Positions 6,560 to 64,000 of a stretch of 64,000 nt of DNA are shown here, piece by piece. Both the position numbers and the translations under genes were made by a program. Position 1 is the first letter of the stretch. Every line of letters starts with the position of its first letter. The notes beneath the pieces were generated by a model, which was not told where the DNA came from, did not search any database, and saw nothing but the letters and a program-made list of their open reading frames with translations. Origin of the DNA: the human T2T-CHM13v2.0 reference genome, Homo sapiens; assembly GCF_009914755.1 (NCBI RefSeq), contig NC_060943.1, one strand, 5' to 3'.

Positions 6560-6845
6560 AATATTTCCTTGATGTGAAAATAGCCCCACTCTACCTAGAG
6601 GCTTCCTCCTGCTTCTTGAGGTGCAATTAAAGTTCCTTCTCTCCCGTATTTAATACTATGTCCTTCTTACCTGCTCTCCGATCCCTAGCACAAAGTCCTA
6701 TTTAAATTTTTGATATGCATCTGTCTCTCCTACTAGAATGTAAGTTCTTGTAGGTCAAGAAATGTCTTTGAACCCTATCTCACCAGTGACTAGCACAGTG
6801 TCTAGTGCAGGTTCATCACTAAGTAAATGTTTAATAAAATAATAC
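6560..6845 (+). mobile_element. L2 3' end (shared with the duplicon B flank at ~52045-52230)
   Basis: ctagaatgtaagttcttg...ctagcacagtgtctag...gtaaatgttt; the reverse complement aligns by eye to 52045-52230. Confidence 0.7.
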
Positions 6846-7122
6846 ATAAGAAGCTGGCAGAAATTCTTGGGTTTTCCCTCTTTCCTCCATCTGAAGGTGG
6901 TTTTCCTGGGTTATAAAATGCCTTAGAAATTATAGAGTTTTCAACAATGAAGTCTAGTTTAGATTCAGCCTGACTCTATGATCAGCCATGGGTTGGGTGG
7001 AGTGTCAACTTTTGCAACTTGAGATTTTAGTGGTTTAAATAGGGACAAACTGTATCTTTTCCCACATAGGCCCAATCCAGGTACTTACTTGAAAATAATT
7101 TATTTTTCTTTCATTTTTTTCC

Positions 7123-7411
7123 TTTTTGAGAGGGAGTTTCGCTCTTGTTGCCCAGACTGTAGTGCGGTGGCGCGATCTCGGCTCTCTGCAACCTCTGCCT
7201 CCCGGGTTCAAGCAATTCTCCTGCCTCAGACTCCTGAGTAGGTGGAATTACAGTCACCCACCACCACACCCAGCTAATTTTTTGTATTTTTAGTAGAGAT
7301 GGGGTTTCACCATGTTGGCCAGGCTGGTCTCAAACTCCTGACCTCAGGTGATACACCCTCCTTGGCCTCCCAAAGTGCCGGGATTACAGGCATGAGCTAC
7401 TGCGCCCGGCC
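7123..7411 (-). mobile_element. AluS
   Basis: Full dimer; aaaataatt on both sides as a probable TSD. Confidence 0.9.
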
Positions 7412-7597
7412 TCAAAATAATTTTTTGCAGGACTTTTTAAAGGAGTATGATAACAACTTTTGAGTCATATATTTTATCCTAGACTTAAAATGTTTCAGTA
7501 ATTACCCAGTGGCATGAGCTCTTTCTTTCATTGTTCTTGCAGGCCCAAGAGGCTGGATGCCAAACCTATCCTCTCCATGTGAAGCACCAACTTGGGG

Positions 7598-60350: not shown

Positions 60351-63300
60351 TAGCATGACCAAGTAGGGTTTGTCTCAGATATGTAAGGTTGGTCTAACAC
60401 TCAAAATTTAAAATGTAATTCACCATATTAAGAGAACAAACAAAAAGTCATATGATTATCTCAGCTTTGGACAAAGTAATTGAAAAAAATTTTAATTCTG
60501 GATATCAATCCCTTCTCAAATATATGATTTACAAGTATTTTTTCCAATTGCCTGGGTTGTCTTTTCACTCTGTTAGATAGTGTCTTTTGATGCACAAAAC
60601 TTTTTAACATGTATTTTTTTGTGGCCTGGCATATTTGTTTTTGTAGTTATGGCAAGAGTTCTGAGATTAATTTTAATACACCTTTGACTCCAGACACAAT
60701 AGTTCACAAGCAATCATTACTTAATTTATAAAAACATCTTTTCTATGACAACATGGGTTTCAAGTAATAGTTTTATTTTTCTTTCCAACTTTTATTTTAG
60801 GTTTAGGGGAGTACATATGCAGATTTGTGACATGGGTTGAAAAAATTTAACACCTCTTTGAAAAAATTTCTCAGTATAGAAAGAATTGGAGGGAACAGCC
60901 TTTACATGATAAAGCACATCTATAAAAGCCTTAAGTTAATAGCACACTGAGCACTTTCCACCCCCCGATCAGGAGTTGGAAAAGGTTATCTATTGTCTCC
61001 ACTTGTATTAAACATTTTACTGGAGATCACAGTAACTGTAAAAGGTAAGAAAAATAAAATCATACAGATTAAAAAGAATATGCATAGAAAACATAATTGT
61101 ATATGTAGAAAACACTACCCGATATACAAAGAAACTACAAGAGATAAGAAAGGAATTTACTGAGGTGCCATATAAAAAAGCAATTATTTTTGCTGTATCC
61201 TACTACATACCAATAGACAGATAGATAGACGTAGATATATATGTGCATGTATATATACACATATATGTGAGTATGTGCATATATATACATGCATATATAT
61301 ATATATAAATGTCTATCTATATGTACACACACACATATACACAAAATGCATACCATGATAGTGGACTGGAAAAAGTTAAGTCATCCACTTAAGATGACAT
61401 TTAAGAAAGGTAAGTCATCCATTTCAACCAGGACCCTGAAAGTTGTCCATGAAATTATTACCAGAGATATTGGTGTCCATGGGGCATAGGCTTTTAAGCC
61501 AGGATAGATCCTGCACCCACCTGATGTCATCTCATGTCCTTGCACCCAGGAGGAGATGCCACACACAACTGTGTAGGTAGCTGCAAAGCTCAGTAAGAAA
61601 AGAAATGCCCAGTTTTGCTGTGCTGACAATTGTTGGTCTCTGCAAACATAGAAGGTAAGAAAGAGAAATAAAAGGCATGCAGGTGGAAAGAGAAGTAAAA
61701 CTGACTTTATTCATACATGATGCATGGAAAATACATGTAGAAAACCCAAAGGAATCTGCAAAAAAAAAAAATCTACCAAAAATAAACAATGAATTTAGCA
61801 AGATCCCAATAATATAAGGTGTGTGTGTATATATGTATGTGTGTATACAAGTACTATATATACATATATATTTAATGCATTTTCTGTGTTCTACCAATGA
61901 ACTATTTGAAAATAACATTTGCAAATCCCATAACATACTTAGGGATAAATTAGCAAAAGCTGAGTAAGACCTATACACAGAAAACTACAAAAGAGTAGCT
62001 GCAAACTTTCTCTGTAAAGGGTCAGGGAGTAAATAATATAGGTTTTATAGGTCACGTATGATCTCTGTCACATATTCTCTGGAATTTTCTGTTGTTTTTA
62101 AAGACCTTTTAAAGACGTTAACATCATTCTTAGCTAACCGGCCTTACAAAAACAGGCTATGAGTGGGGCGTGGTGGCTCACACTCATAATCCCAGCACTT
62201 TGGGAGGCCAAAGCAGGTGGATCATTTGAGGTGAGGAGTTCGAGACCAGCCTGACCAACATGGTGAAACCCGTCTCTGCTTTATACAAAAATTAGCCGGG
62301 CATGGTGGTGGGCGCCTGTAATCTCAGCTACTCAGAAAGCTGAAACAGGAGAATCGCTTGAACCCGGGGGTGGGTGGAGGTTGCAGTGAGCCAAGATCGT
62401 GCCACTGCACTCCAGCCTGGGTGACAGAGCGAGACTCCCTCTCAAAAATAAAAATAAAACAGACTATAGGCCACATTTGGCCCATGGGCTGAAATTTGCT
62501 GACCCTTGGTATAAAACATTGCTGAGAAAAAAAATGTAAAAGATTAAAATATATGGAGATATATCCCGTGAGATGGATTAGAAAAGTTAATATTGCTAAG
62601 TTTTCCATTTTGGCCAAACTCTGAAATCTGTTCTGTGGAATTATTACAGGAGATCCTGGTCCCTTGGGGCACAAGGATTTTAAGCCAGGGTGAATCTTGC
62701 ACCCACCTGATGTGCCATCTCCTACGCTTGCTGAGGCAGCTGTGTGGTTGGCTGCTGGGGTCCATTTGAAGAGAAAGGCCCTGTGGGATATGCTAACAAG
62801 TGGAACTCCCTGCCCTACATCGTCTGAGGAAACTGGAACCCAGCCAAAGAAGACCTTCCAGTAGGCAGTGCCTGTGATCACTGTAGGTGTGCATGGTGCT
62901 CAGTACCCTACAGGCTATAAAAAATAGTAATGCACGATGCACACATGATAAGGAGGCATCACAGTACAGGTGGTTAAATTCAGGAACTCTGGAATCCGAG
63001 AGCCTGGGTCAAATCCTGACAGGGCCACTACCACCTGTGTGAGCCAAGGAAGCTTCTAAAGTTTTACAAATGCTGTTTCACCAAATTTGCAAAATGAAGA
63101 GAACCTGCCTGCCTGGTAGAGATATTGTGGAAAGCAGCATCCAGGAAGGTCTGAGCACCTGGTCCCCAAGTCAGAAACCTTCACAGCCCAGATGGGGATG
63201 CCCTAAGTTCATACCCTTCTAGGCGACCACAGAGAAGTCCCGCCTGGCTCCAGGACTCGGAAAAGCGCTAGAGAGCTTCCTGGAGGAGGCGGCATCCTCC

Positions 63301-63418
63301 CATGCTACCTGCATAGAGAAGAGAGAAGGGAAACTGGGTCCTCTGTGGCGGCTGCCTGAAAGGAAGCAGCTGGGGGCTCTTGCTCCCTGCCTGTGCTGGT
63401 GTCTTCTCCCCACCTTAG

Positions 63419-64000
63419 CCCAGGCCGGCTGCAGCGGCGGGGCTGCCTGGGCGGAGTCAGGAGACAGCACCGCCCGGCCCCTCCCCAGGCACCTTCCCTG
63501 TGAGCCAGCTCCCTACCCTGGGAGGATCTGGGGAGTTCCTGCCTCTGGCTTTGGGCAAGGTCTGCCTCCAGAGTCCCCAGCTGCAAGGGCCGGCGCACCC
63601 ACGCGCACTGGTTGCCAAATCTCCCGCTTTCAGGCCAGGTGCGGAGCGCGCCTCGACAGTCCTGAACATTCTCCACTTAACGGCTGAGAGCCGCTGGGAG
63701 CCTAACGCCTGCAACCGAGTGAGCTCGAGTCCGGCTGGGGTCGGACCGTTGGACCTCCCCGTTGGCCCTTTGTTGTACTTCTTCGCGCCCTGGGCTCGCG
63801 CAAGCTTTCTCTGCCACGCGTTCCAACGGCCGCTCACCGGCATCGGGCTGAACACGGTGCGCTTCACCTCGGAGTTCCCACTCCACTCCAAGGATCCAAC
63901 AGCGCACAAGCTGCTCTTCACGGGCAACTACCTCTGCAAGCTTCACCCCCGGCCCCGCCACGCCCCGCAGGGTTCCCTGTCTGGTCTGGATCACCTCGCT
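63419..64000 (+). pseudogene. NPAP1/POM121-like copy C, 5' end (stop-free frame running off the window; coding status unresolved)
   Basis: The frame from 63419 reads ...PVGPLLYFFAPW...SKDPTAHKLLF-T(ACG 63920)-GNYLCKLHPRPR, homologous to A, B and POM121 LLLMGSYLGK; no ATG in frame. Confidence 0.75.
63420..64000. promoter_or_regulatory. CpG island / candidate promoter
   Basis: The only non-repeat stretch in the window with dense CpG and high GC; GC boxes (gggcgg, ccgccc). Confidence 0.7.

What the first reader, a model, noticed from the sequence alone, without database searches (positions are those of the whole stretch)
6650..64000. Hidden cluster of NPAP1/POM121-derived retrogene paralogs spread by DNA duplication
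Seen: three intronless, mutually homologous copies, A(-) 9470-11611, B(+) 46741-50640 and C(+) from ~63900. They share upstream sequence (ggcagtg...agtaccctaca/agg + MIR), A and C share a MER58 at the same L1 site, and A and B share over 1.5 kb of 3' flank ending in the same L2. Known: NPAP1, POM121L2 and relatives are intronless retrogenes of the nucleoporin POM121; the motif matches were recalled from memory. Inference: one retrocopy landed here and was amplified by segmental duplication after MIR/L2/MER58 activity. This gives a local family that is invisible in the ORF track and may be intact in other mammals.
Basis: partly seen in the sequence, partly recalled or inferred. Interest (0 to 1): 0.85.

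Follow-up and report, generated by a model that had tools for sequence, protein, structure and literature searches.

The report
Dead retrogene copies seed piRNA genes
The window holds three of six broken copies of an ancient reverse-transcribed nuclear-pore gene (POM121) that lie under four published human testis small-RNA (pachytene piRNA) genes; the duplicated unit likely carried the testis promoter, which would give a traceable common origin for a whole family of piRNA genes.

Summary
Three more (D, E, F) lie just left of the window. All six are intronless, decayed POM121 retrocopies related to NPAP1/NPAP1L, with no ATG and many stops or frameshifts. I found no intact orthologue; the lemur and rhinoceros matches to copy B are broken too.

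Two corrections. About 1 kb of the "3' flank" is POM121's own 3'UTR. The true flanks are also shared with NPAP1 (chr15), both chr9 NPAP1L pseudogenes and two chr10 copies. So one insertion spread by DNA duplication around the placental radiation, not necessarily from chr19.

Four published human pachytene piRNA genes map onto the cluster. Promoters of copies E, D and C, the only ones enriched in MYB-like motifs, transcribe backwards through paralogous splice sites into long last exons that read antisense across F, A and B. NPAP1 and one chr10 copy are also listed piRNA genes, and the other chr10 copy probably matches a mouse cluster. I did not find this link in the papers searched. Silencing of POM121 is unlikely; B-derived piRNAs could cut C's transcript.

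The parts
9470..11611 (-). Copy A: decayed POM121/NPAP1-like retrocopy body; ACG at the start site, about 2.2 kb of the middle missing, Alus at 10764-11167
5127..9469 (-). Copy A 3' part: POM121 3'UTR-derived sequence, the inverted terminal UTR piece (about 7575-7510), then true flank with L2-like remnants; homology to copy F runs to 5127
11612..14422 (-). Copy A upstream flank: CpG-depleted promoter relic, MIR-like element (12517-12671), MER58-like insertion (about 13345-13600) in an L1 fragment
46741..50640 (+). Copy B: the most complete retrocopy body; ATA at the start site, 11 stops and 15 frameshifts over 898 matched codons
50641..51695 (+). Copy B POM121 3'UTR-derived sequence, ending in an inverted piece of POM121's terminal UTR (about 51545-51695) shared by the 8 copies that keep this part
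51696..52240 (+). Copy B true (non-POM121) 3' flank with an L2-like end, shared with A, C, F, chr9a/b and chr10a/b
45700..46740 (+). Copy B upstream flank: L1 fragment, MIR-like element (45926-46089), CpG-depleted promoter relic
48455..48990 (+). Tract of B homogenised with C (82% against 68% outside, Fisher p 1.5e-9), probably gene conversion; the partner lies in exon 2 of C's sense transcript
63920..64000 (+). Copy C 5' end (ACG); the unit continues outside the window to about 71240
63521..63919 (.). Copy C CpG-island bidirectional promoter with 6 MYB-like motifs; start sites 63727/63695 (-) and 63871 (+)
58671..63520 (+). Copy C upstream flank with an internal tandem duplication shared with D and E
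45013..63727 (-). Pachytene piRNA gene 19-q13-4180 (= LINC00904); its 5827-nt last exon 45013-50839 is antisense to all of copy B
   Evidence: PMC7782496 supplement file 6, mapped; sperm piRNA cluster at about 45843-50820 in PMC4436662 Table S4
63871..64000 (+). Pachytene piRNA gene 19-q13-7835 (= LINC01838), sense to copy C; exons 63871-64780 and 65998-66744
317..13881 (+). In-window part of pachytene piRNA gene 19-q13-2441 (= LINC02965, starts at -2180 or -8298); its 4613-nt last exon 9269-13881 is antisense to all of copy A's body
   Evidence: sperm piRNA cluster at about 9290-13375
1..4487 (-). Upstream flank of copy D, paralogous to C 58671-62000; holds the 317-439 exon that is paralogous to 61521-61639. 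Outside the window to the left lie copy D (-2421 to -3790, minus), copy E (-8223 to -7714, plus; promoter of 19-q13-13274/LINC01801) and copy F (-27119 to -20852, plus; under the antisense last exon -30868 to -23922 of 19-q13-13274)

Best explanation
These are six dead copies of one POM121 retrocopy plus its flanks, spread by DNA duplication, and they likely work today as pachytene piRNA genes driven by a promoter that the unit carried. A 5'-truncated POM121 mRNA copy inserted next to old repeats, likely before or at the placental radiation, and the unit of about 9-15 kb was copied to chr9, chr10, chr15 and chr19. On chr19 it forms three head-to-tail pairs (F-E, A-D, B-C); a tandem pair that was then triplicated is inferred. 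In each pair the downstream copy (E, D, C) kept a CpG-rich promoter with MYB-like motifs, predicted to bind A-MYB in spermatocytes. It transcribes backwards through paralogous splice sites into a 4.6-6.9 kb last exon that reads antisense across the upstream copy (F, A, B), and published data list these transcripts as piRNA precursors. The most likely targets are sense transcripts of sister copies, above all C's own transcript, so the loci would feed their own piRNA production rather than regulate POM121. Shown here: homology, intron loss, shared flanks, decay, gene-model mapping, motif counts, complementarity counts. Taken from papers: piRNA production. Inferred: A-MYB binding, duplication order, targeting.
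For: Single origin: exon-by-exon matches to POM121 without introns; the 3' profile matches POM121's UTR at E 2e-48, then an inverted terminal UTR piece at E 7e-14 that 8 of 9 aligned copies share. The 1386-position upstream profile has no match in POM121 exon 1, its promoter or POM121L2, while pairwise alignments show that upstream sequence in the six chr19 copies, NPAP1, chr9b and chr10b. Age: terminal branches 0.22-0.27 substitutions per site with CpG columns removed; descent from the primate chr9/NPAP1 line rejected (AU p 6e-6); B-like remnants in lemur and rhinoceros gene models. Pairs: C, D and E share an internal duplication junction and group at 96/86; A, B, F group at 89/66. piRNA genes: four pachytene gene models map with 13 of 15 introns GT-AG as placed, 14 of 15 after a 1-nt shift; last-exon acceptors and the 119-123-nt exon are paralogous in all three antisense genes. 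An independent sperm data set lists piRNA clusters over F, A, B and C. Motifs: YAACNG 15 in C, D, E against a shuffle mean of 3.9 (0 of 2000 shuffles), 2 in A, B, F; CpG o/e 0.52-0.64 against 0.06-0.21. Targets: B has 45 perfect 20-mers against C exon 2, while none of four sources has a 20-mer within 1 mismatch of POM121 or NPAP1.
Against: I saw no small-RNA or ChIP reads; piRNA status comes from published tables. MYB-like motifs are not enriched at NPAP1, chr10a, chr10b and chr9b taken together (4 against 4.2 expected), although NPAP1 and chr10a are listed piRNA genes, so the motif story fits C/D/E only. The stricter pattern YAACKG was significant at C alone. The chr9a cluster appears to use an unrelated promoter (no match of 6 profiles in 18 kb; place estimated from recalled offsets). 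Monophyly of the chr19 copies is soft: 96/74 in the joined DNA tree, 89/98 in one protein tree but 35 in the fast tree, and chr10b falls among them in the 5' trees. The converted tract may sit in C's exon 2 by chance, since exons cover most of the alignable C body. These genes have short first exons (145-910 nt, one isoform 6283), unlike the conserved clusters of PMC7782496, and that paper's review file lists all four as not syntenic in mouse.
Confidence: 0.75

Rival explanations
1. The copies are relics of a once protein-coding NPAP1-like gene family amplified for its protein and still intact in some mammals; piRNA production is a late by-product (closest to the first reader's view).
For: Related genes encode long proteins in elephant, manatee, armadillo, carnivores, ruminants and primates. 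In the rhinoceros model the deletion junction shared by B, C and F may read in frame (a predicted model, so uncertain). dN/dS is below 1 for some pairs (B-D 0.68, B-chr10 0.75).
Against: 0 of 6 copies has ATG. dN/dS B-C is 0.94 (0.73-1.21), and the dead-dead control chr9a-chr9b gives 0.79, so the low values are not clearly beyond method bias. Indels of 3n length are 15-33% between chr19 bodies against 58% for NPAP1-chr9a. No long protein matches a chr19 copy best. The lemur model shares a frameshift with human B.
Confidence: 0.15
2. The antisense piRNAs are kept because they regulate POM121 or NPAP1 mRNA in spermatocytes.
For: All three long last exons are antisense to the retrocopy. PMC4436662 proposes this for the chr9 pseudogene NPAP1P6. 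Each of A, B, F has 38-42 20-mer starts within 3 mismatches of NPAP1, against 0-5 in reversed controls.
Against: No 20-mer within 1 mismatch of POM121 or NPAP1, and only 3-17 within 3 mismatches of POM121. PMC6461890 section 9 finds no selection on reversed pseudogenes in primate piRNA clusters. PMC13061629 reports that few pachytene piRNAs change target levels.
Confidence: 0.12
3. The copies are independent retrotranspositions of a long read-through NPAP1L-type transcript, not DNA duplications.
For: Copies are dispersed over four chromosomes and intronless, the family is testis-transcribed, and the tree is nearly star-like.
Against: Shared upstream sequence runs about 1.3 kb before the start site in NPAP1 and chr9b, and over 4.5 kb in A, D and E compared with C, well upstream of the sense start sites at -49 to -75, with old repeats in register. 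Boundaries differ between copies.
Confidence: 0.07

Closest known systems
NPAP1 / NPAP1L / UPF0607 POM121-derived retrogenes (Neumann et al. 2014, PMC3942032)
   Same: Same intronless POM121 origin, same loss of the transmembrane exon, same retro-insertion as NPAP1 and the chr9 pseudogenes (shared flanks, inverted UTR end shared with chr9).
   Different: The chr19 and chr10 copies are not in that paper's main text or Table S2. They branch outside NPAP1 plus NPAP1L, including elephant, manatee and armadillo (98/99), are all dead, and lie outside the TLE4-TLE1 and SNRPN-UBE3A regions.
Human pachytene piRNA genes 19-q13-13274, -2441, -4180, -7835, pi-NPAP1, 10-q22-295, 9-q21-8235 (annotation in PMC7782496 supplement file 6)
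   Same: The four chr19 entries are these very transcripts; two divergent pairs from central promoters.
   Different: They are listed as separate loci; I found no statement that they are paralogues or lie on POM121 retrocopies. They have short first and long last exons.
Pseudogene-derived antisense piRNA clusters such as NPAP1P6 and GOLGA pseudogenes (PMC4436662, PMC6461890)
   Same: piRNAs made antisense to a pseudogene inside a cluster.
   Different: Here the pseudogene unit appears to carry the promoter itself, the copies are too old to pair well with the parent gene, and the best target is a sister copy's transcript.
[quoted passage not shown]
   Same: Clusters multiply by DNA duplication and carry gene relics with them.
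   Different: That work concerns rodent clusters; this family is old (60-69% identity), spans four chromosomes and includes a surviving protein-coding gene, NPAP1.
POM121L2 and the POM121L copies of 22q11 and 5p/5q
   Same: Also POM121-derived and match PF15229.
   Different: POM121L2 shares neither flank with this unit, and six short loci of the 22q11, chr5 and chr6 copies gave no flank or promoter hit, so they likely come from separate events.

Membership tests
NPAP1-related POM121 retrogene family | Homology to POM121/NPAP1 | tested here: met
   B E 1e-14 with NPAP1; D 37.3 bits over the PF15229 cut-off of 27; profile scores B 898, C 567, D 389, F 275 against controls up to 111; A 150 and E 112 are weak as protein but collinear as DNA. 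Three short in-frame pieces of B hit no Pfam family.
NPAP1-related POM121 retrogene family | No POM121 introns | tested here: met
   Matches to separate POM121 exons are adjacent in the units.
NPAP1-related POM121 retrogene family | Transmembrane part of POM121 exon 1 absent | tested here: met
   The upstream profile has no match in POM121 exon 1 or promoter (best E 2.9); protein-level hints were not significant (E 0.015 or worse).
NPAP1L or NPAP1 gene proper | Position in the TLE4-TLE1 (NPAP1L) or SNRPN-UBE3A (NPAP1) region and nesting in that clade | tested here: not met
   Locus is chr19 between ZNF599 and ZNF30 (annotation given); copies branch outside the clade.
Functional retrogene | Intact open reading frame | tested here: not met
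   B 11 stops and 15 frameshifts, C 6 and 11, D 6 and 10 among matched codons; 0 of 6 with ATG.
Segmental duplication in the strict sense | At least 1 kb at 90% identity or more | tested here: not met
   Pairwise identity about 60-69%: an ancient duplication, below the usual threshold.
Pachytene piRNA gene | Produces abundant piRNAs in adult testis | not testable with these tools
   Taken from PMC7782496 supplement file 6 and PMC4436662 Table S4; the models were mapped to the window here.
Pachytene piRNA gene | A-MYB-bound promoter | tested here: inconclusive
   MYB-like motifs (pattern recalled) enriched at C, D, E only; binding not tested.
Pachytene piRNA gene | Divergent transcription from a central promoter (46 of 89 human loci per PMC7782496) | tested here: met
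   Start sites 63727(-)/63871(+) at C and -8539(-)/-8298(+) at E.
Eutherian-conserved long-first-exon piRNA clusters | Long or unspliced first exon and synteny in mouse | tested here: not met
   First exons 145, 164, 211 and 910 nt (one isoform 6283); listed as not syntenic in mouse.

The most novel reading that the evidence does not exclude
One POM121 retrocopy that captured a meiotic bidirectional promoter about 100 million years ago is the common ancestor of at least six, and the template of seven, of the 89 human pachytene piRNA loci and of the mouse 10-qB5.1 cluster. NPAP1 and NPAP1L are the coding survivors of what is otherwise a self-amplifying piRNA gene family, in which antisense arms cut the sense transcripts of sister copies and gene conversion between B and C renews the pairing.
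Probability: 0.4. Interest if true: 0.8.

Novelty: new variant of a known kind. Interest (0 to 1): 0.62.

Why it matters
How pachytene piRNA genes arise is an open question, because their sequences diverge fast and show little homology. Here 7 of 89 annotated human loci overlap one datable family. Three paralogous promoters are active and three are not, within about 100 kb, which gives a natural experiment on what makes a piRNA promoter. A defined antisense/sense pair (B and C) allows a direct test of cleavage-driven piRNA production. It also recasts the Prader-Willi-region gene NPAP1 as one member of an older family, and explains four LINC genes as paralogous transcripts.

Tried and rejected
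Intact orthologues: three protein searches and one profile search (best 150 of 376 hits listed, 226 not seen) found none. Of 144 new proteins scored frameshift-aware, 4 matched a chr19 copy best: three by small margins (11-23) and P0164 (169 aa, margin 166), which mixes reading frames. Coding constraint: dN/dS and indel-length tests did not clearly exceed controls. Remnant of the transmembrane exon: not detected. Paralogous promoter at the chr9 9-q21 cluster: none in 18 kb. Conservation of the antisense acceptor AG in 8 of 8 copies against a 5.6% background is only suggestive, and it is also kept where no such exon is known. B and C as sister copies outside the tract: rejected (AU p 0.013). 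ACG as the ancestral start codon: parsimony is a tie, so dropped. Rfam found nothing in the window. No further copy turned up in 10 kb between F and E or in the genome DNA searches, which are lower bounds. The profile hits on family loci include the copies the profiles were built from, so I use that call only for coordinates and for the absence of hits in unrelated loci. Two long computations timed out and were rerun smaller. Ozata et al. 2020, the source of the human piRNA annotation, was not held.
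Full report
1. Observation. The window is chr19:37386001-37450000. With Alus masked, A(-), B(+) and C(+) align collinearly at 60-71% over kilobases. NPAP1, read from chr15, hits B at E 1e-14. A frameshift-aware profile of 11 NPAP1/NPAP1L proteins scores B 898, C 567, D 389, F 275, A 150 and E 112, with reversed and reverse-complement controls at 48-111. The shared upstream block and the insertion at one L1 site are present. 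The repeat names MIR, L2 and MER58 are recalled, not library-tested.

2. More copies. Three lie just left of the window: D(-) from -2421 to about -3790, found by PF15229; E(+) from -8223 to about -7714, a stub whose body is deleted; and F(+) from -27119 to about -20852. They form three head-to-tail pairs, F-E, A-D (inverted) and B-C. The same unit lies at chr10:84.44 Mb (chr10a), chr10:64.83 Mb (chr10b), chr9:92.02 and 92.51 Mb (the NPAP1L pseudogenes described in PMC3942032; I identify them by position and similarity) and at NPAP1.

3. Anatomy. The units match separate POM121 exons with no introns between. It ends in an inverted piece of the terminal UTR (E 7e-14) that 8 of 9 aligned copies share; NPAP1 lacks this part. 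Beyond it is true flank, 0.55 kb in B and 2-2.5 kb in A, C, F and chr9b. A profile of the 1.4 kb upstream has no match in POM121 exon 1, its promoter or POM121L2, while pairwise alignments find that upstream sequence in the chr19 copies, NPAP1, chr9b and chr10b. So there was one 5'-truncated insertion, and its flanks travelled with it. A, D and E each share over 4.5 kb upstream with C, which argues for DNA duplication. The Alus I could place are copy-specific. The chr19 copies continue an L2-like element past the point where chr9b and NPAP1 diverge, which hints that chr9 is not the original site, but this is not settled.

4. Age and order. With CpG columns removed, terminal branches are 0.22-0.27 and internal ones 0.01-0.025, a burst. 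NPAP1 and chr9 split at 0.14-0.155 on the same tree. PMC3942032 places NPAP1's arrival after 60-70 Ma, and it is present in New World monkeys, so the burst falls roughly at 65-120 Ma (inference). In the protein tree B, C, D and the chr10 copies lie outside NPAP1 plus NPAP1L, including elephant, manatee and armadillo (98/99; A, E and F were left out as too fragmentary). Constraints placing them with chr9/NPAP1, with all primate copies, or with all boreoeutherian genes are rejected (AU p 6e-6, 2e-53, 0.024, 18 of the 33 rows, fast searches). Dead sequences may be drawn to the root, so this is a caution. A rhinoceros model (P0194) matches B best over 47839-49311 and spans the deletion junction of B, C and F. 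A lemur model (P0193) fuses an ABO-like gene (75% to 24933-25427) to a piece 70-74% like B, which suggests synteny. C, D and E share an internal duplication junction. A tandem pair that was then triplicated is the simplest reading; monophyly of all six is only moderately supported. B and C are 82% identical over 48455-48990 against 68% elsewhere (p 1.5e-9), sisters there (99.7/100) and not elsewhere (AU p 0.013). This is likely gene conversion, and it carries a shared frameshift and stop.

5. Coding state. All six are dead. dN/dS is 0.94 for B-C and 0.68-0.95 for the four chr19 pairs tested, against 0.79 for the dead chr9 pair; 3n indels are 15-33% against 58% for NPAP1-chr9a. No protein over 450 aa among 144 new library hits matches a chr19 copy best; 226 weaker hits of that search were not listed. 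The lemur model shares one frameshift with human B, and the rhinoceros model mixes frames. An intact orthologue is not excluded, only not found.

6. What the locus does. Supplement file 6 of PMC7782496 lists four pachytene piRNA genes here. Placed by exon sizes and the RefSeq exons, with small shifts for build differences, 13 of 15 introns read GT-AG, 14 after a 1-nt shift, and one has a GC donor. 19-q13-4180 (LINC00904) starts at C's promoter and ends in a 5827-nt exon antisense to B. 19-q13-2441 (LINC02965) starts at D's or E's promoter and ends in a 4613-nt exon antisense to A. 19-q13-13274 (LINC01801) starts at E's promoter and ends in a 6947-nt exon (-30868 to -23922) antisense to F. 19-q13-7835 (LINC01838) is sense to C. 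The last-exon acceptor and a 119-123-nt exon are paralogous in all three antisense genes. Table S4 of PMC4436662 independently lists sperm piRNA clusters at about 9290-13375(+), 45843-50820(-), 62767-64734(+) and over F(-). C, D and E keep CpG-rich promoters (o/e 0.52-0.64 against 0.06-0.21) and 15 MYB-like motifs in 3 x 400 nt (shuffle mean 3.9, 0 of 2000), while A, B and F have 2. With the stricter pattern only C was significant. A-MYB drives pachytene piRNA genes according to PMC7782496; binding here is inferred.

7. The wider family. pi-NPAP1 is a listed pachytene piRNA gene. 10-q22-295 fits chr10a: of 22 GT-AG placements in 5.2 kb, the one with the full consensus donor puts the start about 75 nt before the start-codon site. 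The mouse divergent pair 10-qB5.1-5404/-221 is listed as syntenic to human chr10:65733204/65733431. Anchored on miR-1296 (T2T place, hg19 place recalled), this falls within a few hundred bases of chr10b's start, so it is probable, not proven. 9-q21-8235 runs antisense over the chr9 pseudogene (placement by recalled offset), but apparently from an unrelated promoter. That makes 7 of 89 human pachytene loci on this family, 6 starting at the paralogous promoter, where NPAP1's start was not placed exactly. Against a simple motif model, NPAP1, chr10a, chr10b and chr9b together show no enrichment.

8. Targets. Counting ungapped 20-mers after Alu masking, none of the four antisense sources comes within 1 mismatch of POM121 exons or NPAP1. 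Within 3 mismatches there are 3-17 for POM121 and 15-42 for NPAP1. B against C's exon 2 gives 45 perfect and 264 within 3 mismatches, with 0 in the reversed control. PMC13061629 describes cleavage of precursors by pachytene piRNAs as a feedback loop and most such piRNAs as selfish; PMC6461890 finds no selection on reversed pseudogenes in clusters. I therefore favour self-feeding production (about 0.4 for the B-to-C step) over regulation of the parent gene (about 0.12).

9. Novelty. The parts are known: the NPAP1 family, the piRNA gene models, NPAP1P6 piRNAs and cluster birth by duplication. The RefSeq table given lists no pseudogene for these copies. I found no paper linking them in ten searches: NPAP1+POM121+retrogene, the five LINC names, NPAP1+pseudogene+chromosome 19, POM121 with segmental duplication or core duplicon, NPAP1L/NPAP1P/UPF0607, lncRNA from lost genes, piRNA cluster/NPAP1/pachytene, pachytene piRNA+NPAP1, piRNA+POM121+pseudogene and the locus names (0 papers). 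Most hits were seen as listings only. The library lacks most subscription papers. Ozata et al. 2020 was not held, and GENCODE, HGNC and retrocopy catalogues were not checked; any of these may already annotate the copies.

10. What I saw of each paper. PMC3942032: main text, parts 1-3 of 4, and Table S2; Table S1 not read. PMC7782496: passages, rows of supplement file 6 and part 6 of the peer-review file; file 2 unreadable. PMC4436662: passages and rows of Table S4; file 8 not searchable. PMC6461890: passages, section 9 and the supplement list only. PMC4423968 and PMC5408686: passages. PMC13061629: abstract and passages. Assis and Kondrashov 2009: only as cited.

11. Verdict. Observation confirmed, interpretation partly right. 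New variant of a known kind, interest 0.62.

Noticed in passing
window 16470-24897: A near full-length young L1 (about 18750-24897; ORF1-like frame 19539-20501, a 1093-aa ORF2-like frame 20791-24072 that departs from ORF2 near its end) follows a second L1 5' piece 89% identical to it. LINC03049 starts on the minus strand inside the L1 5' UTR, which fits the L1 antisense promoter (recalled) and is unrelated to the retrocopy promoters.
   Followed up: partly
window 24898-25458: The ABO-like pseudogene (glycosyltransferase family 6, E 4e-67) begins right at the end of the L1, and only its last exons were found. A lemur gene model (P0193) has a full-length-looking ABO-like frame 75% identical to it, so this paralogue may be intact in lemurs.
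   Followed up: partly
window 52904-53038: A 130-nt copy of B's 3' flank (84% to 51883-52013) sits inside the neighbouring L1 remnant; a similar local repeat occurs in chr9b.
   Followed up: no
window about 7600-8290: An insertion specific to copy A in the terminal UTR region that looks like a solo LTR (by eye); it holds LINC02965 exon 7543-7709 in part and the end of LINC03049.
   Followed up: no
G000 C1, C2, C6, C8, C9 (three places), C10, C13: Nine loci with open frames of 339-509 aa match PF15229 positions 2-213 at similar scores; probably the primate UPF0607 retrocopies of PMC3942032, not checked.
   Followed up: no
G000 C5:21.49-21.59 Mb, 34.31-34.44 Mb, 70.46-71.71 Mb: Tandem arrays of POM121-like copies with stop-free frames of up to 1270-1550 codons.
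   Followed up: no
proteins P0152 and P0166: Short library ORFs that match chr10b and chr10a best, suggesting remnants of those copies in other genomes.
   Followed up: partly
L037:3430-6620: The chr10b copy has an internal duplication of about 1.5 kb of its body; NPAP1 and chr9a have their own internal repeats.
   Followed up: no
window 28200-28600, 51040-51185, 56950-57380: Purine-rich and TA/CA simple repeats account for several long spurious open frames in the ORF list.
   Followed up: yes
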